DNA of 64,000 nt. Origin: an archaeon. Its GTDB lineage: Archaea > Nanobdellota > Nanobdellia > Woesearchaeales > GCA-2686295. The position numbers and the translations under genes are program-made. Below, piece by piece: positions 7,776-40,503 of the stretch. The stretch's first letter is position 1. Each line of letters opens with the position of its first letter. The stretch is from assembly GCA_043822105.1 (NCBI GenBank), contig JBDRCD010000003.1:870-64869 (forward strand). Direction: 5' to 3'. The notes below the pieces were generated by a model that did not search any database, had not been told where the DNA came from, and was given only the letters and a program-made list of their open reading frames with translations.

Positions 7776-9551
7776 ATGATTGAAAACCAACTAACCATAA
7801 TCGGAATTTTAATGATATTCTCAATAATAGCAGGATTATTGTCTGCGAAGTTCAAACAACCGCTGGTGCTGGGACTATTGATAATTGGAATGTTCATAGG
7901 ACCAAGTGGATTTGGACTAGTCGGAGATGCCAACATGATTAACTTCATGATAGAGCTGGGTGCAATACTATTTCTATTTGTAATTGGAATGGAATTTTCT
8001 ATAAAACGACTATCAAGAATAGGTTTGAAAGCAATAACAGTAACACTATTCAAAGTTGGAATAATGTTCTTCACCATATTTGTAACAACTGTTCTTTTAG
8101 GGTTTAATACTACAACGGCAGCATTTACAGGAGTAATATTTTCATTTTCAAGCACAGCCATAATAACAAGTATTCTTAGACAAAAACAACTAATAAAAAG
8201 AAGTGAAGTGCCATTGCTGGTTGCAATCTTGGTATTGGAAGACGCTTTTGGAATATTTGCACTAACCTTTTTCAATTCATTAAACAAGGCGGGTGCGGCA
8301 GGGTTGATCACAGCAATACAGCATTTGGTAATAAGCCTCACAATACTTGTCGCAGTTTACCTTCTGGTTGCAAAATTCGCAGAAAGAGTTGTCACATGGG
8401 TTACTAAAAATGCAGGTGAAGAATTCATAATGTTCATAAGCCTGGTATTGTGTGTGGCATTTGCATACTTCAGTTATCTACTCCATCTAAGTCCCAGTGC
8501 AGGTGCATTTTTGGCAGGAAGTGTGATATCAACATTTGCAGAGTCAAAGAAATTTGAGCACTCAATAAAGCCATATTCACTGATGTTCACATCATTTTTT
8601 TTCATAGCAATAGGAACACTGATAGATTTAACTGCCATATCTGAAAATCTGATTTCAATACTTGTTTTGATGACTGTATCGATTGTTAGTTTATTTATAG
8701 CGGTTGGAGTTACAACAAAAGTCTTTGCAAACTTTTCAAATGAAGGTGCAATTTTTAGCACAATAGCAATGCTTCCGCCGGGGGCATTTTCGCTACTGGT
8801 GGCAAGAGAAAGCATGAGTCTTGGATCACAAACAGATCTTGTAACCATAACCTCCGTTGTAATTTTGTTGAGCTCAATATTTATGTCAATAGGAATTGGA
8901 AGCCACAGAAAATTATCAGACCTAATATCAGTAAAAAATGGTTTTCATAAAACCACTAGTTCATTATCGAACTACACAAAAACCTTGTTTGAAGAAATAG
9001 AAATAGAAAATCATCATACAAGAAAACTCAAGTCTTTAATGGGCAGATATCTAAAAACCAGTTTTATATCATTACTGATTGTAGTTATAGCTTCTGAAAT
9101 ATCATCCTACTTCCATACAAATGTTCCGAAATATTTTATATTTGGAGTTGGTCTGCTTGGTGCTGTAATGTTTTTCATAAGGGCCGCTGATTTATTCAAA
9201 AAAGTGATTGAACAGCTGGTACACATATTAACCACTCTTGAAGGAGGCACCAGAATAATGAAAACTCGTAAAATATTAAAAGCAATGATTTACGGTTTGA
9301 TGTTGTCTTTGATTGGTTTGTTTTCTCCGCTGCTGATATATGCTCTTGGATTGAGCGCATGGTTCTTGATAATTTCAGTGGTTGTAATTATTGCAAGTTT
9401 AATCTTGATATCAACTGCCTATAATATACTTGTTAAGGTTTCCTACCAACATAAGTATATAATTCCAAGCTATAAGAAAGTTGACTTCAAAAAGGAATTC
9501 AACAGAAAGATATCGCTGATTAAACAAGGACACGAAAAAAACATTGAATAG
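7776..9551 (+). CDS. Cation:proton antiporter (CPA2/Kef-type) with an extra C-terminal membrane domain
   Basis: About 12 TM segments typical of the Na+/H+ exchanger family, then a further TM-rich tail. Confidence 0.7.
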   Translation: MIENQLTIIGILMIFSIIAGLLSAKFKQPLVLGLLIIGMFIGPSGFGLVGDANMINFMIELGAILFLFVIGMEFSIKRLSRIGLKAITVTLFKVGIMFFTIFVTTVLLGFNTTTAAFTGVIFSFSSTAIITSILRQKQLIKRSEVPLLVAILVLEDAFGIFALTFFNSLNKAGAAGLITAIQHLVISLTILVAVYLLVAKFAERVVTWVTKNAGEEFIMFISLVLCVAFAYFSYLLHLSPSAGAFLAGSVISTFAESKKFEHSIKPYSLMFTSFFFIAIGTLIDLTAISENLISILVLMTVSIVSLFIAVGVTTKVFANFSNEGAIFSTIAMLPPGAFSLLVARESMSLGSQTDLVTITSVVILLSSIFMSIGIGSHRKLSDLISVKNGFHKTTSSLSNYTKTLFEEIEIENHHTRKLKSLMGRYLKTSFISLLIVVIASEISSYFHTNVPKYFIFGVGLLGAVMFFIRAADLFKKVIEQLVHILTTLEGGTRIMKTRKILKAMIYGLMLSLIGLFSPLLIYALGLSAWFLIISVVVIIASLILISTAYNILVKVSYQHKYIIPSYKKVDFKKEFNRKISLIKQGHEKNIE

Positions 9552-28929: not shown

Positions 28930-28952
28930 TGAGCCCAGGAGGATTGGCGAAC
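28930..28952. repeat. Degenerate duplicate of the tRNA-Arg 3-prime end
   Basis: tgagcccaggaggatt matches tgagcctaggaggatt (29025..29040) at 15 of 16 positions, followed by a related cgaac. Confidence 0.7.
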
Positions 28953-29013
28953 AACGAATACTTGTTGATAGCTAACGTCCGTAGGATATTCACTGCGTGA
29001 AATCCCACATAGT
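28951..29013 (+). repeat. tRNA-adjacent conserved structured element, copy 1
   Basis: ACAACGAATACTTGTTGATAGCTAACGTCC, then hairpin (GTAGGATATTCAC/GTGAAATCCCAC), then ATAGT. Homologous to 37389..37442. Confidence 0.7.
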
Positions 29014-29024
29014 AAAAAGAAAAG

Positions 29025-29180
29025 TGAGCCTAGGAGGATTCGAACCCCCGTCTATCGGTATCCACACAACCTTTCTCTGAGAGCTTGACGAGTTTACGAG
29101 GAAACTCTCGGTTTTCCCCAGGCTTTTCTTAAAAGGCTGTTCCGAAGCCGATTGCACTATCCAGGCTATGCTATAGGCCC
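29025..29180 (-). tRNA. tRNA-Arg(TCG) with an ~82-nt intron in the anticodon loop
   Basis: Hand-folded cloverleaf. Acceptor GGGCCTA/TAGGCTC, D arm GCAT/GTGC, anticodon stem ATCGG/CCGAT with loop CTTCGG...A, T arm GGGGG-TTCGAAT-CCTCC. Confidence 0.8.
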
Positions 29181-35466: not shown

Positions 35467-37134
35467 CTATTTATGTGTATAAATAAAATATAATATATTA
35501 TTAGCTTTCTTTTCCAGTCTGCAGAATCCAAACCTTTCAAACTGGATTATTTCTCCTATTTTCAGATTTGAAACCATTGGTTCAGCAATGCCTTTTATTA
35601 CTTTTTTGTCAGGCATCAGAACATTTACATCGACAAGGTCTTTTGTGAACGGAAGCCAGTGCATTATCAGCTTTCCTTCTTTTTTGTAATCATCATAGCT
35701 CTTTCCTTTGTATATGAAATATCCGTTCTTCTTGACAAAATTCATGCAGTCCATCAGCCTGTATAGCTGTTTATCCTTGAATTTTTTGATATCATTTTGT
35801 GACAGGTAGAACAAATCAGATGTTTTGAAGCTTCTCATACCTCTCTTTGGAAAATCAGGATGTAATTGCAGCTCTATCTTCATCTTTGGAGCGTCCTGCA
35901 TTCTTACCCTTACAGGTTTTTCTATGAAGAAATAACGATTGCAGTTTGCATCCAGAAGTCTTTTATTGTGAACTATCAGGTCGTCCCAAGTCTTGGTTGA
36001 CTCTGCCTTTGTTATTCCGGTGCTTAAAACAAAGTTCTTGACTGCTTCCGGCAGGAAACCTCTTCTTTTCAGGGCCACAAGGGTGGTGAGTGACGGATCG
36101 TCCCAACCGGTTAGTTTTTTGGAATCAACGAGCTCCCTTATTTTTCTGCCTGAACTTTCCACTCCCTCCATGTTGAAACGTGCAAATTCATAGATTGAGG
36201 TTTCGTTGAGACCTAGAAGTTTTTGAATGTATCTCTGTAGTTCATTTCTAAGCTCAAACTCTTTCGATCTAAATCTGTAGGTTACTCCTTCAATGCCGTC
36301 CATTACAGCGTTTTCAAAATCATAGTTTGGCCAGACAGTAAATTTATCTCCGAGTCTGCAGTGTGGTTTTTTTATTATTCTGAATATTGTTGGGTCCCGC
36401 ATGGAGCTGTTTTTGTGCTTCATATCAATTTTTAACCTCATAATTGCTTTACCTTCGGCAAAAGTAGGCATTTTTCTCCACATCAAAAGGTTCTCTTTGA
36501 TATGTTTGTATCTGCAGTCACAGGCTTTACCTTTCATTCTACCTTCCTTGATTTTCTCCTGATTGCAGGTACATATGTATGCTTTTCCAAGGTTGATTAG
36601 TTTGTCTGCGTGTCTGTAGAATTCCATCATGTGATCCGATGCGTAGTCGATTAAATCGGGTTTTATGCCCAGCCATTTGTAGTTATCCAGATGTATTTTG
36701 TAAAAATTGGTCTTTGCCAGCTCAGGATTGGTATCTTCAAATCTTAGTATGAATTTTCCGTTATGGCTCTTTGCAAATTCATAGTTTATGAACAAAGACT
36801 TTGCATGTCCAATGTGTGGATATTTGCTTGGTTCTGGTGGAAATGCAGTTACAACTTTTCCTTCAGTTTTGAAAGGCTCAAAAATTCCTCTTTTTATCTT
36901 TTCTTTCTTTTCTAGAAGTTCAGGTGCAAGCTCTCTAAGCCTTTTTTCCTGCTCTGCCGGCTTCATGGCATTGACTTTTTTTATGATTTCAGAAACTTTC
37001 TTGCTGAGATTTTTCATGTCTTTTTTGACAGAAGGATCGGCCTTGAAAACACAACCGATGACTGCTCCAGGGTTTGCCTTGCCCTTGAACTTCACAGCGT
37101 TCTCCAGAGCGTATTTTTCTATGAGTTTATCCAT
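35467..37134 (-). CDS. gltX: Glutamyl-tRNA synthetase (archaeal type)
   Basis: PSKYPHIGHAKS (HIGH motif) with archaeal/eukaryotic GluRS length and domain order. Confidence 0.9.
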   Translation of the reverse strand: MDKLIEKYALENAVKFKGKANPGAVIGCVFKADPSVKKDMKNLSKKVSEIIKKVNAMKPAEQEKRLRELAPELLEKKEKIKRGIFEPFKTEGKVVTAFPPEPSKYPHIGHAKSLFINYEFAKSHNGKFILRFEDTNPELAKTNFYKIHLDNYKWLGIKPDLIDYASDHMMEFYRHADKLINLGKAYICTCNQEKIKEGRMKGKACDCRYKHIKENLLMWRKMPTFAEGKAIMRLKIDMKHKNSSMRDPTIFRIIKKPHCRLGDKFTVWPNYDFENAVMDGIEGVTYRFRSKEFELRNELQRYIQKLLGLNETSIYEFARFNMEGVESSGRKIRELVDSKKLTGWDDPSLTTLVALKRRGFLPEAVKNFVLSTGITKAESTKTWDDLIVHNKRLLDANCNRYFFIEKPVRVRMQDAPKMKIELQLHPDFPKRGMRSFKTSDLFYLSQNDIKKFKDKQLYRLMDCMNFVKKNGYFIYKGKSYDDYKKEGKLIMHWLPFTKDLVDVNVLMPDKKVIKGIAEPMVSNLKIGEIIQFERFGFCRLEKKANNILYFIYTHK

Positions 37135-37186
37135 GTGTTAAGAAGTGGTTATATGGTTTATATAGTTTGTGAAAATTACGAAAATA

Positions 37187-37267
37187 AGATTTTTGGAATT
37201 ACAGAAAGAAAATCTTTCTGGAATGCAAAATCAGAGAGTTTTGCATATTCAAAGCCCAGAAGCTTTG
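37187..37267. repeat. Hairpin series upstream of tRNA-Ala, related to 22937..23027
   Basis: aagatttttgg, then CAGAAAG-aaaat-CTTTCTG, ATGCAAAA-tcagagag-TTTTGCAT and CAAAGC-ccagaa-GCTTTG. Confidence 0.65.
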
Positions 37268-37313
37268 AAAATAGAAAGCATTAAAAGAAATAGATAATTT
37301 TAGAATATTGTTT

Positions 37314-37387
37314 GGGCTCTTAGCTCAGTCCAGTAGAGCGCTTCGTTCGCAACGAAGAGGCCGTGGGTGCGAATCCCACAGAGTCCA
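37314..37387 (+). tRNA. tRNA-Ala(CGC), no intron
   Basis: Acceptor GGGCTCT/AGAGTCC with G3:U70, anticodon loop TTCGCAA, T arm GTGGG-TGCGAAT-CCCAC. Confidence 0.85.
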
Positions 37388-37388
37388 T

Positions 37389-37442
37389 ACAACTAATACT
37401 AGTTGACGGCTAACGTCCGTACGACATAAAGTCGTACATAGT
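37389..37442 (+). repeat. tRNA-adjacent conserved structured element, copy 2
   Basis: ACAACTAATACTAGTTGACGGCTAACGTCC, then hairpin (GTACGAC-ataaa-GTCGTAC), then ATAGT. Confidence 0.7.
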
Positions 37443-37467
37443 GGTTTTTGAGAACCACAGAGTCCAT
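37441..37467 (+). repeat. Degenerate duplicate of the tRNA-Ala 3-prime end
   Basis: T-arm-like GTGGTT...AACCAC followed by ccacagagtccat, which is identical to 37376..37388. Confidence 0.75.
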
Positions 37468-37535
37468 TAATTAACACTACTAGTTAGTAGTAAATAATCG
37501 AAACATTTAAATAAGAGTTCTGCCTATAATCACCT

Positions 37536-38204
37536 ATGAATGCATTTGAAGAATTTTTAAAGAATCAGGAACGAATTTATACTAAATTCAAAAACTCTGA
37601 AAATGATGTAAAAACAAATGGAATAGAAAGAAATTTTCGTTTGGATATGCAAGGATTTGTAATATCGATAATACATCCAGATTACGTAAATGAAAGTGTT
37701 CTGAATTTTTCAGAAAGAATAAAAGATGTTTCTCCAGCAATAATCTATCCTGCAGACGGACTGCATACAACACTGTCAACCTATCAAAACAAAGAATATG
37801 ATGGAACAGACTATGATAAGGATTTGGCAGATAAGTTATGTGATTCTGTCAGATCTGTACCAAACAAACAGCAATTTGCAATTAACTTTCCTATGTGGTT
37901 ATACAATACAAATTCTGTTTTTGTTGCAGGTTATTCCGATAAAATATTTTTTGAACTAGGTAATCAAATTCATAATAATGCTTTTAAAAAAAACATTACT
38001 CTAAATAAACAATGGGGCAGTCATATTACCGCAGCAAGATTTTTAGAAGAAAAAAATGGCAATGAGCTAACAGATTTTTTTAAACTAATGGAAGAAGCAC
38101 CTGTTATCGGAAAAAGCATTCCAACGCATATAAAAGTTGGATATCAGAGAATTACTGATGACGGATTTACCTATGAACCAATTGAATTGTTTCCTCTTGG
38201 TTGA
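37536..38204 (+). CDS. 2H phosphoesterase superfamily protein (LigT / cyclic phosphodiesterase-like)
   Basis: Two HxT/Sx motifs at the expected spacing: GLHTTLS and GSHITAARF. Confidence 0.6.
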   Translation: MNAFEEFLKNQERIYTKFKNSENDVKTNGIERNFRLDMQGFVISIIHPDYVNESVLNFSERIKDVSPAIIYPADGLHTTLSTYQNKEYDGTDYDKDLADKLCDSVRSVPNKQQFAINFPMWLYNTNSVFVAGYSDKIFFELGNQIHNNAFKKNITLNKQWGSHITAARFLEEKNGNELTDFFKLMEEAPVIGKSIPTHIKVGYQRITDDGFTYEPIELFPLG

Positions 38205-38373
38205 TTATTGTTCTCTAGTATATCAACCATTATGGGAGTTATTTTTTCAAATAGTGTCTTTATCTTGCTTTTCTTTGCCAAAAGAATCCACCTTGCTTAC
38301 CTTGTTCTTGTATTTGGTTTTATTTATAGTTTTCGTTATATTTTTAAACAAAGGCTTGATTTCTCTGTTAGTC

Positions 38374-38447
38374 GGGCGGATAGCTCAGTCCAGTAGAGCG
38401 CTTCGTTCGCAACGAAGAGGCCGTGGGTGCGAATCCCACAGAGTCCA
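38374..38447 (+). tRNA. tRNA-Ala(CGC)-like second copy with a mispaired acceptor stem (possible pseudo-tRNA)
   Basis: Nucleotides 8-74 (38381..38447) are identical to 37321..37387. The 5-prime strand is GGGCGGA, as in tRNA-Ala(GGC), so pairs 5-68, 6-67 and 7-66 are mismatched. Confidence 0.6.
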
Positions 38448-38457
38448 CTATTTTAGT

Positions 38458-38985
38458 TTAAAATAATAAATGTTTAGGACTTCTATCAAAATATGCTTGG
38501 TCTGGAATTAGAACTCTAGAAAATACATACATAAGTTTGTAAAAGGATTGAAGTTTTTCTGCAGGCATAGAAATAGTTCCATTAACATGATATATTATTT
38601 CAGATAACTCGCTTGAAACACCTGCGATGCTTTTTTTTTCTTTAGGATTCTCTGCTAAGACTGCTGCTTTTCCCAGAATTTTGGGATAATATATCTCTTC
38701 AAAAGTCAAATCAGTAATAGAATTAATCGGAGGCCTTGTTTTTGGGTCTGGGGGAACATATGCCAGTGCTTCTTTTAAATTTCTAGAAAAATCTCTCATA
38801 GAATTTACTCCTTTGCCATATTTATCATAGAGGCTCTTAATATCATCAGGATTTCTCCAAATACCCTTTAAAAACTTTGATAATAATTCCATTTCGTAAG
38901 AAAAACTTTTATCTTTCCAATCAAAAGGTTCTTTTCTCTTAAAAACTTCTTTTGGTGTTGCAGTTTTATAAGGCCAGTTAGTCAT
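38458..38985 (-). CDS. Hypothetical protein
   Basis: ORF track only. Confidence 0.4.
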   Translation of the reverse strand: MTNWPYKTATPKEVFKRKEPFDWKDKSFSYEMELLSKFLKGIWRNPDDIKSLYDKYGKGVNSMRDFSRNLKEALAYVPPDPKTRPPINSITDLTFEEIYYPKILGKAAVLAENPKEKKSIAGVSSELSEIIYHVNGTISMPAEKLQSFYKLMYVFSRVLIPDQAYFDRSPKHLLF

Positions 38986-39067
38986 TTCAATTAGGAATTA
39001 AGAGAAGTATTTATGTCTTTTTGAATATCTGTTTTCAGTTTAATTTATAAACAAACTTCTCATCCTT

Positions 39068-40261
39068 TTGGCTATGACTCAAAGCTACGAATCCAACATA
39101 TGGAAATATTACCTATTTAGATTTGTGAGTGCACTAGAATTAACAATCTCAATCTTTGTGCTCTTTTTGCTGGCCAATGATCTTTCAATGGTTCAAATAA
39201 TGCTATTGGAAAGTATTTTCATGATAACAATTTTGCTTCTCGAGGTTCCAAGTGGAGTTTTTGCAGACATATTTGGTCGGAAAAAAGCTTTGGTTTTATC
39301 CCTGCTATCTGCATCTGTGGGTTTCATTGTGTTTGGAATTGGAAACACTTTTTGGGTGTTTCTAATTGCTCAACTATTGGTTGCTTTGGGCTGGTCATTG
39401 GAATCAGGAGCTGATTCGGCTTTGGTCTATGATTCTCTAAAAGAAATCAACAAGGAAAAAGACTATGCAAAAGTGTTTGGCAGGTCAACATTCATTGCTC
39501 ATTTTACATGGGCTGGTTCAGCCTTACTAAGTGGTTTTCTGGCAATTTATCTGGGCTATAAAAATCTCTTCTTTATGACTGCTTTTTTATTTTTTCTTGG
39601 TTCTTTGATGGCTCTGTGGTTTAAAGAACCTCCAATTCATAAAAAAGTAGCTGGAAAGAACTATCTGGCTCATTTAATTGATGCAGTCAAATTTACCTAT
39701 AATCATAAAATTGTTAGAAACCTAATAATCTTTTATGGAATGTTTGCAGCCATAACTCATCTTGCATGGTTTGTGATTCAACCTTTCTATGACTCCAGTG
39801 CTTTGCCAAAGTATTTCGTTGGAATAGCAGTATCCATCTATTGTTTATTTGCAGGAATGGGTAGTTTGATAGGATACTATTTTATGGCCAAAATAAAAGT
39901 AGAAAAATTACCTTTTTTACTGCTGTTAATTGCCAGCATTTCATTTATAGGATTATTTTTTATCGGTCCACTATATGGTTTGATACTAATAGCAATAATG
40001 TCTCTTGCAAGTGGAGTTAGAGATATCTATGTAAGCAAAGGAGTGCAGGAGAATACCGATTCACACCATAGAGCAACCGTTGGTTCAATACAAAGTTTTT
40101 CCAAAAGCATAATGTATGCAATATTTGCTCCAATTTTAGGATATTTAGTTGATGTATTTACGCCGGGAGCAGCGTTCTTGTTAATGGGAATAGGATTACT
40201 GTTATTTTGTATATATTATCTAATTATGGTGAAATTAAGTAGAAACAAAGCAGTTCTTTAG
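39068..40261 (+). CDS. MFS transporter
   Basis: Twelve predicted TM helices with a GVFADIFGRKK-type loop motif. Confidence 0.75.
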   Translation: MAMTQSYESNIWKYYLFRFVSALELTISIFVLFLLANDLSMVQIMLLESIFMITILLLEVPSGVFADIFGRKKALVLSLLSASVGFIVFGIGNTFWVFLIAQLLVALGWSLESGADSALVYDSLKEINKEKDYAKVFGRSTFIAHFTWAGSALLSGFLAIYLGYKNLFFMTAFLFFLGSLMALWFKEPPIHKKVAGKNYLAHLIDAVKFTYNHKIVRNLIIFYGMFAAITHLAWFVIQPFYDSSALPKYFVGIAVSIYCLFAGMGSLIGYYFMAKIKVEKLPFLLLLIASISFIGLFFIGPLYGLILIAIMSLASGVRDIYVSKGVQENTDSHHRATVGSIQSFSKSIMYAIFAPILGYLVDVFTPGAAFLLMGIGLLLFCIYYLIMVKLSRNKAVL

Positions 40262-40299
40262 ATAATTTTTTAAACCACTGTTGAATTTCTCTGACTTAT

Positions 40300-40412
40300 G
40301 GGCGGATAGTTCAGTCTGGTAGAACGCTTGGTTGGCATACAAAGAGCCGGCTCTTTGAGTTTGGCTTGTTCCAAAAATCAAGAGGCCCCGGGTTCAAATC
40401 CCGGTTCGTCCA
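40300..40412 (+). tRNA. tRNA-Ala(GGC) with a ~39-nt intron
   Basis: Acceptor GGGCGGA/TTCGTCC with G3:U70, anticodon stem CTTGG/TCAAG, loop TTGGCA plus an intron containing the palindrome AAAGAGCCGGCTCTTT, T arm CCGGG-TTCAAAT-CCCGG. Confidence 0.8.
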
Positions 40413-40503
40413 TACTTTTAATTTTTCTTAACACCGTTTTATTCTTATAAGAATATTTTTGTCAGGAGTGTTTATATACTATTAGACGAGAAAATAATAT
40501 ATC

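What the first reader, a model, noticed from the sequence alone, without database searches (positions are those of the whole stretch)
37314..38447. Two tRNA-Ala(CGC) copies bracket a 2H-phosphoesterase gene, and the second copy has a hybrid 5-prime end and a broken acceptor stem
**What the sequence shows**
- 37321..37387 and 38381..38447 are identical over 67 nt, which is positions 8 to 74 of the tRNA.
- Copy 1 starts GGGCTCT and pairs perfectly with AGAGTCC, including G3:U70.
- Copy 2 starts GGGCGGATAG, which is exactly the 5-prime end of the separate tRNA-Ala(GGC) at 40300.
- As a result, three base pairs at the bottom of copy 2's acceptor stem cannot form.
- Between the copies lie a short conserved element, a 13-nt third copy of the tRNA 3-prime end, and a gene for a LigT-like 2H phosphoesterase. 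That enzyme class acts on 2-prime,3-prime-cyclic phosphate RNA ends and on tRNA splicing or repair intermediates.

**Interpretation**
- The arrangement looks like a tRNA-targeted insertion, or a recombination between tRNA-Ala isoacceptor genes, that trapped an RNA-end-processing gene.
- Alternatively, the hybrid copy could be a non-canonical tRNA-like RNA.
Basis: seen in the sequence. Interest (0 to 1): 0.62.

Follow-up and report, generated by a model that had tools for sequence, protein, structure and literature searches.

The report
Chimeric, probably dead tRNA-Ala gene copy
In this tiny groundwater archaeon, a second tRNA-Ala(CGC) copy is a patchwork of two different alanine tRNA genes, so its acceptor stem cannot close; it is most likely a recombination scar in a rearrangement-prone tRNA locus, not a new kind of RNA.

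Summary
The window comes from a DPANN archaeon (Woesearchaeota/Nanoarchaeota-like).

- **The two copies.** tRNA-Ala(CGC) at 37314-37387 is canonical. The copy at 38374-38447 differs only at tRNA positions 5-7 (GGA instead of TCT). That leaves G5·A68, G6·G67 and A7·A66 unpaired.
- **Origin of copy 2.** Its first 10 nt and about 45 nt of upstream promoter are homologous to the tRNA-Ala(GGC) gene at 40300. Positions 8-73 are identical to copy 1. Copy 2 is therefore a GGC-5'/CGC-3' chimera made by recombination or gene conversion between isoacceptor genes, and is probably defunct.
- **Not an assembly artefact.** An independent read-derived contig spans copy 2 and both flanks exactly.
- **The 222-aa protein.** It is a real but divergent LigT-like 2H phosphoesterase. 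It behaves as a resident DPANN gene, not trapped cargo. No functional link to the tRNA copies was found.
- **The element and the third copy.** The "short conserved element" is a covariation-supported structured module. In relatives it is a bulge-helix-bulge intron in the tRNA T-loop (position 59/60). Here it sits after an intact tRNA, followed by a duplicate of the tRNA 3' end. The same layout recurs at other tRNA genes in this clade.

Interest in the chimera is modest. The intron-like element with its 3'-end duplications is the more interesting lead.

The parts
37314..37387 (+). tRNA-Ala(CGC), copy 1. Canonical cloverleaf with acceptor GGGCTCT/AGAGTCC, G3:U70 and A73. It has an unusual D-loop (AGUCCAGUA, A at position 18) and T-loop (UGCGAAU, G at position 55).
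   Evidence: Rfam 66.2 bits. ARAGORN calls Ala(cgc). Cloverleaf minimum free energy -30.6 kcal/mol. The orthologue in L003 has the same acceptor stem and T-loop.
37389..37444 (+). Structured hairpin module: ACAACnnATACnnGTTGAnnGCTAACGTC, a variable hairpin, then TAGTGG. It is homologous to T-loop (59/60) bulge-helix-bulge introns of DPANN tRNA genes. Here it lies just after the discriminator of copy 1.
   Evidence: Fold z-score -3.9. Eight homologues give 92% paired cells and 10 pairs with changes on both sides; slid controls give 23-39%. The module is intronic in L004, L195, L196 and L191. No Rfam family matches.
37445..37467 (+). TTTTTGAGAA followed by a 13-nt repeat of the tRNA 3' end (CCACAGAGTCCAT, tRNA positions 62-73 plus one nt). 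This is the 'third copy'. It probably derives from a 3' exon or an att-like duplicate.
   Evidence: family D5. The 22-mer TTTTTGAGAACCACAGAGTCCA is identical in relative L003 at the same place, although the rest of the spacer is unalignable. Its tail resembles the intron 3' end of L021, GAGAAAG|TCCCGA.
37536..38204 (+). 222-aa LigT-like 2H phosphoesterase from a divergent family that Pfam does not cover. The motifs are H77-T-T and H163-x-T165...R168.
   Evidence: The family alignment gives the invariant and near-invariant residues. The profile matches PDB 1vdx and 2fyh at E about 3e-5, with both HxT motifs aligned. The AlphaFold2 model has pLDDT 97. Top Foldseek hits are 1vdx and E. coli LigT.
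38331..38373 (+). Promoter-like upstream flank of copy 2, with a TATA-like TTTTTAAA at 38341-38348. It is a diverged paralogue of the tRNA-Ala(GGC) upstream flank.
   Evidence: family D1. Identity is 27/45 in register, against a mean of 12.7 (sd 3.1) for window 45-mers.
38374..38447 (+). Copy 2, a chimeric tRNA-Ala. Positions 1-10 are GGC-type (GGGCGGATAG). Positions 8-73 are identical to copy 1, with anticodon CGC. Acceptor pairs 5:68, 6:67 and 7:66 are broken.
   Evidence: An exact independent contig spans 38349-38502.
38458..38985 (-). 175-aa ORF with no homologue in the protein collection searched and no Pfam hit. It is part of the DNA between copy 2 and the GGC gene.
39068..40261 (+). MFS transporter gene. 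It is a resident DPANN gene: homologues at 76% and 63% identity lie in other contexts, away from any tRNA.
40257..40299 (+). Upstream flank and promoter of tRNA-Ala(GGC). It is the second member of the imperfect direct repeat shared with 38331-38373.
   Evidence: The last 19 nt match a related strain's contig at 16/19.
40300..40412 (+). tRNA-Ala(GGC) with a canonical anticodon-loop intron of about 40 nt. The acceptor is GGGCGGA/TTCGTCC. It is the donor type for copy 2's 5' end.
   Evidence: Rfam 54.5 bits. ARAGORN with introns allowed. Orthologues in L003 and L004.

Best explanation
Copy 2 (38374-38447) is a chimeric tRNA-Ala gene that is most likely non-functional. Its promoter, leader and first 10 nt come from a tRNA-Ala(GGC)-type locus. 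The body from about position 11 to the discriminator comes from the neighbouring tRNA-Ala(CGC) gene.

**How it probably arose (inferred).** The two isoacceptor genes are similar enough to recombine in register, either by a crossover or by a gene-conversion or template-switch tract. The junction lies in the shared TAG at positions 8-10. The two genes have different acceptor stems, GGGCGGA/TTCGTCC versus GGGCTCT/AGAGTCC. Swapping the 3' strand but not the 5' strand therefore leaves three purine-purine mismatches at the base of the stem.

**Why the body is still identical to copy 1 (inferred).** The flanks have diverged, yet the body matches copy 1 exactly. This fits a recent conversion, or continuing conversion from copy 1, which lies 1 kb upstream. 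Positions 5-7 sit at the very edge of the homology and escape it.

**Setting.** The interval between the CGC and GGC genes is a rearrangement hotspot in this clade and holds different genes in each relative. The LigT-like gene is a bystander there.

**Shown versus inferred.** The chimeric composition, the flank homology, the broken stem and the reality of the junction in reads are shown. The mechanism and the lack of function are inferred.
For: - **Composition.** The copies are identical except at tRNA positions 5-7. GGGCGGATAG is the 5' end of the GGC gene.
- **Flank homology.** The upstream 45 nt match the GGC gene's upstream flank at 27/45 in register. Only 4 of 127,910 window 45-mers reach that level, and those 4 include the self-match and the GGC hit. 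Upstream flanks of the other tRNAs score 14-23.
- **Limits of identity.** Identity to copy 1 stops exactly at the discriminator. The downstream flanks are unrelated.
- **Broken stem.** The Rfam alignment flags the acceptor pairs as non-canonical and drops from 66.2 to 46.9 bits. ARAGORN does not call it Ala. The cloverleaf is weaker. No complementary strand lies nearby.
- **Comparative order.**
  - L004 has CGC and GGC genes 85 nt apart.
  - L003 has them 3.7 kb apart with four unrelated genes between.
  - More distant relatives have a single tRNA-Ala between GluRS and HAD-HIT.
  - None has a hybrid.
- **Related strain.** Its contig follows 38228-38354 and then continues into a proximal promoter that matches the window's GGC gene at 16/19, but copy 2's own proximal flank at only about 11/19. 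This suggests 38355-40280 is extra DNA in the window.
- **Real junction.** An independent contig matches 38349-38502 exactly.
Against: - If copy 2 were an old, dead gene, its body should have diverged as its flanks have. Yet 67/67 nt match copy 1 and 10/10 match the GGC gene. This needs recent or repeated conversion. It could instead mean selection on a functional RNA.
- A conversion tract that includes positions 66-68 has only GTCCA as its 3' homology, which is short for classical homologous recombination.
- The related-strain evidence rests on two unlinked 151-nt contigs at depth 2.
- No close relative carries the locus, so the age and polarity of the events are not established.
- No RNA data exist for this organism.
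Confidence: 0.6

Rival explanations
1. Integration scar. A mobile or circular DNA carrying a tRNA-Ala-like attachment region, together with orf175 and the MFS gene, recombined with the chromosomal tRNA-Ala(GGC) promoter and 5' end. The recombination was either site-specific or a single Campbell-type crossover. The hybrid would be the element-side junction, and the roughly 53-nt imperfect repeats (promoter plus GGGCGGATAG) would be the junction repeats.
For: - Imperfect direct repeats at 38331-38383 and 40257-40309 bracket 1.9 kb.
- The related-strain contig is mosaic. Its distal promoter is identical to copy 2's side, and its proximal promoter is like the GGC side, as a single crossover predicts.
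- Short duplicates of tRNA 3' ends that stop exactly at the discriminator recur at five tRNA genes in this clade. That is the classical signature of integration at tRNA genes.
- A published precedent exists: a tRNA-Thr 5' fragment lies 1.8 kb upstream of the intact gene, flanking a recombinase-encoding insertion (PMC3293823).
Against: - No integrase or recombinase is present in the ORFs scanned.
- MFS is a vertically inherited DPANN gene, with homologues at 76% and 63% identity elsewhere, not typical cargo.
- GC content is the same as the surroundings.
- An element-borne tRNA would already have had to be the GGC/CGC chimera, so a recombination between isoacceptor sequences is still needed.
- Integration at the 5' end of a tRNA gene is unusual (own knowledge).
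Confidence: 0.15
2. Unequal crossing-over between tandem CGC and GGC genes on sister chromosomes produced the order CGC - hybrid - GGC in one step. Later insertions then separated the three genes.
For: - The gene order CGC, hybrid (GGC-5'/CGC-3'), GGC is exactly what this predicts.
- L004 shows the required tandem ancestor, with the two genes 85 nt apart.
Against: - The model predicts that the spacer is duplicated on both sides of the hybrid. The two intervals share nothing apart from the promoter, and the downstream flanks are unrelated.
- It does not explain the mosaic similarity of the related-strain contig.
- Diverged promoter copies alongside a perfectly identical body would still need later conversion.
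Confidence: 0.1
3. Copy 2 is a functional non-canonical tRNA-like RNA. Examples would be a tRNA-Ala with a partly open acceptor stem, or a regulatory or decoy RNA. Selection would maintain it.
For: - Conservation is sharp and limited to the tRNA-like 74 nt, while both flanks are diverged.
- A TATA-like box lies at the usual distance.
- G3:U70 and A73, the AlaRS identity elements (own knowledge), are intact.
- The Rfam score is still above the gathering threshold.
Against: - No alternative valid fold exists.
- Three consecutive purine-purine mismatches sit next to the stem junction.
- L003, L004 and the other relatives have no counterpart.
- The body's identity is equally well explained by conversion from copy 1.
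Confidence: 0.1
4. Assembly artefact: a chimeric join inside a repeated tRNA sequence in a metagenome-assembled genome.
For: A 67-nt exact repeat is the kind of sequence that causes mis-joins. The source is a metagenomic contig.
Against: A read-derived Logan contig from another run covers 38349-38502 with no differences, spanning both junctions. Other exact contigs cover 37132-37368 and 37383-37533.
Confidence: 0.03

Closest known systems
tRNA gene fragments and disrupted tRNA genes produced by recombination with mobile DNA in archaea (Caldiarchaeum subterraneum tRNA-Thr(GGU) locus; Sugahara et al. 2012, PMC3293823)
   Same: A partial tRNA gene lies about 1.8-1.9 kb upstream of the intact gene of the same type, with inserted DNA between them. 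There is heterogeneity between related strains. Intron gain or loss occurs at the same loci.
   Different: Here the fragment is fused in register to the body of a different isoacceptor gene, giving a full-length chimera. No recombinase gene is present. The intervening genes look like resident genes.
Concerted evolution and gene conversion among paralogous tRNA genes, and the chimeric tRNA pseudogenes it produces (general knowledge)
   Same: A tract of perfect identity is confined to the tRNA body while the flanks have diverged. The junction lies in a conserved tRNA segment.
   Different: The donor and recipient have different acceptor stems, so the tract breaks the stem. That makes the chimera visible and probably inactivates it.
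Integration of archaeal plasmids and viruses into tRNA genes, leaving direct repeats of the tRNA 3' part (SSV-type and pNOB8-type integrases; own knowledge, and cited in PMC3293823)
   Same: Short direct repeats of the tRNA 3' end stop at the discriminator. They occur downstream of window Ala(CGC), window Arg(UCG), L003 Ala(CGC), L003 Ala(GGC) and L018 Ala(GGC).
   Different: The inserts are only 50-90 nt and there is no integrase. One insert family is the same sequence that serves as a T-loop intron elsewhere, and it occurs in both orientations.
Non-canonical archaeal tRNA introns at position 59/60, cut at bulge-helix-bulge motifs, and 'intron transposition' (Thermoproteales; DPANN epsilon2-type endonuclease, PMC3239211; reviews PMC4033280, PMC4090602)
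   Same: L004, L021, L191, L195 and L196 carry T-loop introns. In each, the central helix between T-loop nt 54-57 and the intron 3' end covaries (UUCG:CGAA versus UUCA:UGAA). The same intron module occurs in tRNAs of different identity.
   Different: In the window the module is not inside the tRNA. It follows an intact 3' end and precedes a duplicated 3' end. The window's T-loop UGCG cannot form the central helix.
LigT/ThpR-type 2H phosphoesterases (P. horikoshii PH0099, PDB 1vdx; E. coli LigT, PDB 5ldi)
   Same: Two HxT motifs and the same fold (TM-score 0.78, normalised to the target).
   Different: Only about 15% identity. There is an extra N-terminal helix of about 28 residues. No member reaches a Pfam threshold. 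The substrate is unknown.

Membership tests
Canonical functional tRNA-Ala (tested on copy 2) | Seven-base-pair acceptor stem | tested here: not met
   Only pairs 1:72 to 4:69 form. Pairs 5:68, 6:67 and 7:66 are G·A, G·G and A·A. Copy 1 meets this feature.
Canonical functional tRNA-Ala (tested on copy 2) | G3:U70 and discriminator A73 (AlaRS identity elements) | tested here: met
   Read directly from the sequence.
Canonical functional tRNA-Ala (tested on copy 2) | D, anticodon and T arms; covariance-model score above threshold | tested here: met
   Rfam RF00005 scores 46.9 bits against a gathering score of 29, but only with four acceptor positions deleted. ARAGORN fails to call it Ala.
Canonical functional tRNA-Ala (tested on copy 2) | Expressed, end-processed, CCA-tailed and aminoacylated | not testable with these tools
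   Only DNA runs hold this organism, and at low depth.
2H phosphoesterase superfamily, LigT-like (222-aa ORF) | Two H-x-T/S-x motifs about 85-95 residues apart | tested here: met
   H77-T-T-L and H163-I-T-A. H77 is invariant. T78, T79, H163, T165 and R168 are conserved in at least 90% of 92 family members.
2H phosphoesterase superfamily, LigT-like (222-aa ORF) | The 2H fold | tested here: met
   The AlphaFold2 model has pLDDT 97.2. Foldseek gives 1vdx at E 1.7e-8 and TM-score 0.78 (target-normalised), followed by E. coli LigT. The profile matches 1vdx at E 2.8e-5.
2H phosphoesterase superfamily, LigT-like (222-aa ORF) | Match to a curated Pfam 2H family | tested here: not met
   The protein has no hit. 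Only 1 of 92 members touches LigT_PEase, at E 0.006.
2H phosphoesterase superfamily, LigT-like (222-aa ORF) | Cyclic phosphodiesterase or 2'-5' ligase activity | not testable with these tools
   Needs an enzyme assay.
Integrated mobile element at a tRNA gene | Integrase or recombinase gene inside or beside the insert | tested here: not met
   The ORFs between 23.7 and 47.1 kb scanned against Pfam include no integrase or transposase. orf175 has no detectable family.
Integrated mobile element at a tRNA gene | Direct repeats derived from the tRNA gene at both ends of the insert | tested here: met
   There is a 13-nt repeat of the 3' end at 37376-37388 and 37455-37467. There is also an imperfect repeat of about 53 nt at 38331-38383 and 40257-40309.
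Integrated mobile element at a tRNA gene | Empty site in related genomes | tested here: inconclusive
   Two unlinked low-depth contigs of a related strain fit an empty site for 38355-40280. L003 and L004 lack the hybrid but are too distant to decide.
Archaeal bulge-helix-bulge tRNA intron (element 37389-37454) | Lies inside the tRNA and interrupts it | tested here: not met
   It starts after discriminator A73 of an intact tRNA.
Archaeal bulge-helix-bulge tRNA intron (element 37389-37454) | Bulge-helix-bulge motif at the exon-intron boundaries | tested here: not met
   The window T-loop UGCG cannot pair with the UGAG/GAGAA tail. L004 and L021 do form T-stem, 3-nt bulge, UUCA:UGAA helix and 3-nt bulge.
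Archaeal bulge-helix-bulge tRNA intron (element 37389-37454) | Homology to bona fide introns | tested here: met
   The same module is the T-loop intron of tRNA-Ala, tRNA-Val and tRNA-Arg genes in L004, L191, L195 and L196.
Split or trans-spliced tRNA | Separate half genes with complementary leader and trailer sequences | tested here: not met
   No complementary partner for GGGCGGA or AGAGTCC lies between 36.5 and 41 kb, other than the intact genes themselves.

The most novel reading that the evidence does not exclude
The locus may preserve intermediates of DNA-level mobility of a tRNA intron.

The proposal is that a small structured element inserts into or next to the T-loop region of DPANN tRNA genes, in either orientation. 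On insertion it duplicates the tRNA 3' end, or the 5' end as at L192.

- If the first duplicate is lost, the element persists as a bulge-helix-bulge-spliced T-loop intron.
- If the first duplicate is kept, the element persists as a harmless appendage after an intact tRNA.
- Recombination between the duplicates would give precise intron loss.

The chimeric copy 2 would be a by-product of the same recombination-prone tRNA neighbourhood.
Probability: 0.2. Interest if true: 0.7.

Novelty: new member of a known kind. Interest (0 to 1): 0.42.

Why it matters
**The chimera.** It is a clean natural example of how recombination between isoacceptor genes with different acceptor stems can make a tRNA gene that looks almost perfect but cannot fold. 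This matters for annotation. Covariance models still score it above threshold, so MAG annotation would count it as a second tRNA-Ala(CGC).

**The wider pattern.** The same structured module appears in three settings: as a T-loop intron, as a post-tRNA appendage with a duplicated 3' end, and in antisense orientation at another tRNA. If this reflects mobility, it would bear directly on an open question: how non-canonical archaeal tRNA introns are gained, moved and lost.

**The protein.** The 2H family is a sizeable uncharacterised clade and would be worth an enzyme assay. Nothing here ties it to the tRNA copies.

Tried and rejected
- **Exact searches for the tRNA body or its 3' part in GTDB representative genomes.** These found only L003's genome.
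- **The single metagenome scan, using the D-arm 20-mer.** It returned unrelated tRNAs that share the odd D-loop and no relative of the locus.
- **The 14-specified-base pattern GTTGANNGCTAACGTC in genomes.** It returned only chance bacterial hits and wasted a scan. The longer pattern worked.
- **Structure prediction from a 3-sequence alignment.** It failed, with pLDDT 39. It succeeded with 92 sequences.
- **Rfam at a permissive threshold over 37250-38520.** No family matched the hairpin element.
- **A tandem-duplication origin for the third copy.** The insert and the post-repeat flank are not similar: 161 of 1000 shuffles score as well.
- **Similarity of copy 2's downstream flank to the CGC or GGC downstream flanks.** None found.
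- **A hidden compensating strand for copy 2.** None found.
- **A split integrase or other function for orf175.** It has no homologue at all.
- **MFS as foreign cargo.** Rejected, because homologues at 76% and 63% identity sit in other chromosomal contexts.
- **Recovering the related strain's tRNA between its two contigs.** Nothing was laid there.
Full report
**What the window is.** The region carries archaeal-type tRNA genes with anticodon-loop introns. GC content is 33-36%. The glutamyl-tRNA synthetase gene (35467-37134, minus strand) is 77% and 74% identical to MAGs labelled archaeon, Nanobdellati, Woesearchaeota or Nanoarchaeota. The organism is therefore a DPANN archaeon. Low-depth exact matches occur in groundwater and biofilm metagenomes.

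**Checking the observation.**
- tRNA-Ala(CGC) at 37314-37387 is a canonical cloverleaf with acceptor GGGCUCU/AGAGUCC, G3:U70 and A73. It scores 66.2 bits in Rfam and ARAGORN calls it Ala(cgc).
- The second copy, 38374-38447, differs only at tRNA positions 5-7 (family D3). Pairs 5:68, 6:67 and 7:66 become G·A, G·G and A·A.
- The covariance model reaches 46.9 bits for copy 2 only by deleting four acceptor positions. ARAGORN returns a meaningless tRNA-Trp call. The cloverleaf loses 5 kcal/mol and its z-score falls from -3.1 to -1.5.
- GGGCGGATAG is the 5' end of the intron-containing tRNA-Ala(GGC) at 40300-40412.
- The 13-nt third copy of the 3' end lies at 37455-37467 (family D5).
- A Logan contig from an independent run matches 38349-38502 without a difference. 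The chimera is therefore present in reads and is not a scaffolding error.

**The protein.**
- On its own the 222-aa ORF has no Pfam or PDB sequence hit, and the word-based search found only two homologues.
- An exhaustive profile search found 411 representative clusters.
- In an alignment of 92 members, H77 is invariant. T78, T79, H163, T165 and R168 are conserved in at least 90%.
- The profile matches the Pyrococcus 2'-5' RNA-ligase-like proteins 1vdx and 2fyh at E about 3e-5, with both HxT motifs aligned.
- The AlphaFold2 model built on this alignment has pLDDT 97. Its best structural matches are 1vdx and E. coli LigT.
- The label 'LigT-like 2H phosphoesterase' is therefore right, although the family is not covered by Pfam.
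- The two homologues whose genomic context was examined lie next to an inositol-monophosphatase-family gene. In L002 that gene is followed by HIT and an intron-containing tRNA-Met, the same HIT-tRNA pair that lies downstream in the window. The gene looks like a resident of this neighbourhood, not cargo.

**Where copy 2 comes from.**
- The 45 nt upstream of copy 2 match the 45 nt upstream of the GGC gene at 27 positions in register. Window 45-mers average 12.7 (sd 3.1), and only four of 127,910 reach 27, including the self-match and the GGC hit. Upstream flanks of copy 1, tRNA-Met and tRNA-Arg score 14-23.
- Copy 2 therefore sits on a GGC-type promoter and leader and begins as a GGC-type gene. 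From about position 11 to the discriminator it is the CGC gene.
- Identity with copy 1 ends exactly at A73, and the downstream flanks are unrelated.
- The two parental genes have different acceptor stems, so a chimera with one strand from each cannot pair.
- No complementary strand that might rescue the stem lies between 36.5 and 41 kb.

**Comparative context.** The ancestral order in the wider clade is GluRS, then one tRNA-Ala on the other strand, then HAD, HIT, tRNA-Met and SerRS (L016, L018, L021, L028). The closest relatives have two Ala genes and no hybrid:
- L004 has CGC and GGC only 85 nt apart.
- L003 has them 3.7 kb apart, with four unrelated genes between.
- The window has LigT, the hybrid, a 175-aa ORF without homologues and an MFS transporter between them.
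- The MFS gene has homologues at 76% and 63% identity that are not next to tRNAs. The interval is therefore a rearrangement hotspot that collects resident genes, not an island of foreign DNA.
- No integrase was found among the ORFs scanned between 23.7 and 47.1 kb.

**A partial 'empty site'.**
- Run X3 holds a related strain. One 151-nt contig aligns to 38228-38354, with 19 substitutions almost all inside 38258-38319. It then continues TTGAATTTATCTAATTTATGGG.
- Those 19 nt match the proximal promoter of the window's GGC gene (40281-40299) at 16/19. They match copy 2's own proximal flank at only about 11/19.
- A second contig joins a GGC-type 3' end (…TTCAAATCCCTGCCCGTCCA) to the homologue of 40419-40493.
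- This fits a relative in which the LigT-downstream spacer runs straight into the GGC gene. In that case 38355-40280 (hybrid, orf175, MFS) would be extra DNA in the window, bounded by imperfect repeats of about 53 nt covering the promoter and the first 10 nt of the tRNA.
- The contigs are unlinked and at depth 2, and a search for the piece between them found nothing. I treat this as suggestive only.

**Mechanism.**
- I favour homeologous recombination or gene conversion between the two isoacceptor genes, with the junction in the shared TAG at positions 8-10.
- The body's perfect identity to copy 1, against diverged flanks, points to a recent or repeated conversion from the gene 1 kb upstream. 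Positions 5-7 lie at the edge of the homology and escape it.
- A one-step unequal crossover between tandem genes predicts the observed order. It also predicts a duplicated spacer, which is absent.
- A Campbell-type or site-specific integration explains the repeats and the mosaic contig. It lacks a recombinase and still needs a pre-existing chimera.
- A functional non-canonical RNA cannot be excluded, because conservation is confined to the 74 nt. No fold, covariation or orthologue supports it.

**The 'short conserved element' and the third copy.**
- The 56 nt after copy 1 (37389-37444) fold into hairpins with z = -3.9.
- The same module occurs on the plus strand at about 28951-29013. That is antisense to tRNA-Arg(UCG) (29180-29025, minus strand). 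It lies between that tRNA's 3' end and a 16-nt repeat of it at 28945-28930.
- In relatives the module lies inside a T-loop intron, between positions 59 and 60. This holds for tRNA-Ala(GGC) in L004 and L191, tRNA-Val(UAC) in L195 (the same genome as L003) and tRNA-Arg(UCU) in L196.
- Eight copies give 92% paired cells and ten pairs with changes on both sides, against 23-39% paired cells for slid controls. No Rfam family matches.
- In the true introns, T-loop nt 54-57 pair with the intron's 3' end (UUCG:CGAA or UUCA:UGAA) next to 3-nt bulges. This is a bulge-helix-bulge motif.
- In the window the tail is TTTTTGAGAA and the T-loop is UGCG, so this helix cannot form. The element is not spliceable in that way and follows an already complete tRNA.

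**Duplicated tRNA 3' ends across the clade.**
- Duplicates 50-90 nt downstream of the gene, ending at the discriminator, also occur at L003 Ala(CGC), L003 Ala(GGC) and L018 Ala(GGC). None was seen in the upstream control regions.
- The L003 GGC repeat starts at position 60, exactly where the orthologous L004 gene has its intron.
- L192 shows the mirror image: a 17-nt duplicate of the 5' end of tRNA-Glu, then the module, then the intact gene.
- The 22-mer TTTTTGAGAACCACAGAGTCCA is identical in the window and L003, although the rest of the spacer is unalignable. I cannot explain this.
- These facts fit either scars of integration at tRNA genes or intermediates of intron gain and loss. They do not decide between the two.

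**Verdict.** The recombination reading is supported, and the 'trapped RNA-repair gene' reading is not. Copy 2 is best filed as a chimeric, probably inactive tRNA-Ala gene in a recombination-prone tRNA locus. That is a known kind of object, comparable to the tRNA fragments and disrupted genes described by Sugahara et al. (PMC3293823). The intron-like module with exon duplications is the part that deserves follow-up.

Noticed in passing
window 28930-29180 (minus strand): tRNA-Arg(UCG), with an intron of about 82 nt, is followed by a 79-nt insert (29024-28946) and a 16-nt repeat of its own 3' end with one change (AATCCTCCTgGGCTCA, 28945-28930). The insert carries the same hairpin module as 37389-37444, but in the opposite orientation relative to the tRNA.
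   Followed up: partly
L004 4540-4697(-), L021 6372-6524(-), L191, L195, L196 (coordinates): tRNA-Ala, tRNA-Val and tRNA-Arg genes of related DPANN genomes carry T-loop (59/60) introns that share this module. Their bulge-helix-bulge central helix covaries with T-loop nt 57. Rfam does not call the L004 gene, and ARAGORN misses or mis-delimits these genes. L191 holds two tandem modules in one intron.
   Followed up: partly
L003 745-963(-) and 4588-4733(-); L018 6150-6290(-); L192: Short duplicates of tRNA ends flank small inserts at several tRNA genes. 3'-end repeats that stop at the discriminator occur at L003 Ala(CGC), L003 Ala(GGC) and L018 Ala(GGC). A 17-nt 5'-end repeat lies upstream of tRNA-Glu in L192. 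The inserts differ in sequence.
   Followed up: partly
window 37445-37467 and L003 4588-4609(-): The 22-mer TTTTTGAGAACCACAGAGTCCA is identical in two genomes whose GluRS proteins are only 77% identical, while the neighbouring spacer is unalignable. The reason for this conservation is unexplained.
   Followed up: no
window 37327-37335 and 37367-37373; L003; L028; L060-L070: tRNA-Ala(CGC) has A at position 18 (D-loop AGUCCAGUA) and G at position 55 (T-loop UGCGAAU), instead of the near-universal G18 and U55. L028 has UGCGAUU. All 11 unrelated metagenomic tRNAs found with the same D-arm have xGCGAAx or xGCAAAx T-loops. This suggests covariation of the 18-55 tertiary pair.
   Followed up: no
L003 964-987(-) and 4734-4757(-): An identical 24-nt GC-rich hairpin leader (ATGGTGTCGACGGAAATGACCGTC) lies directly before both tRNA-Ala genes of L003. 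L004 has a similar CAACGG...CCGTTG hairpin directly before its tRNA-Met.
   Followed up: no
window 40441-40454: The palindrome ATTCTTATAAGAAT lies upstream of the 94-aa ORF. Many unrelated high-depth contigs in runs X1 and X3 match it. It recurs upstream of genes in L003 and L004. It is probably a shared promoter or operator motif of these archaea.
   Followed up: no
L191 (MGIZ01000043.1): This contig is labelled Candidatus Yanofskybacteria, a CPR bacterium. It carries an archaeal-type tRNA-Ala with a T-loop bulge-helix-bulge intron, so it is probably mis-binned.
   Followed up: no
L194 (about 7800-8000, minus strand): A tandem array of at least three copies of the hairpin module, with no tRNA called nearby.
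   Followed up: no
window 38361-38446: ARAGORN reports a 'tRNA-Trp(cca)' here. This is a mis-fold of the chimeric tRNA-Ala copy and would mislead automatic annotation.
   Followed up: yes
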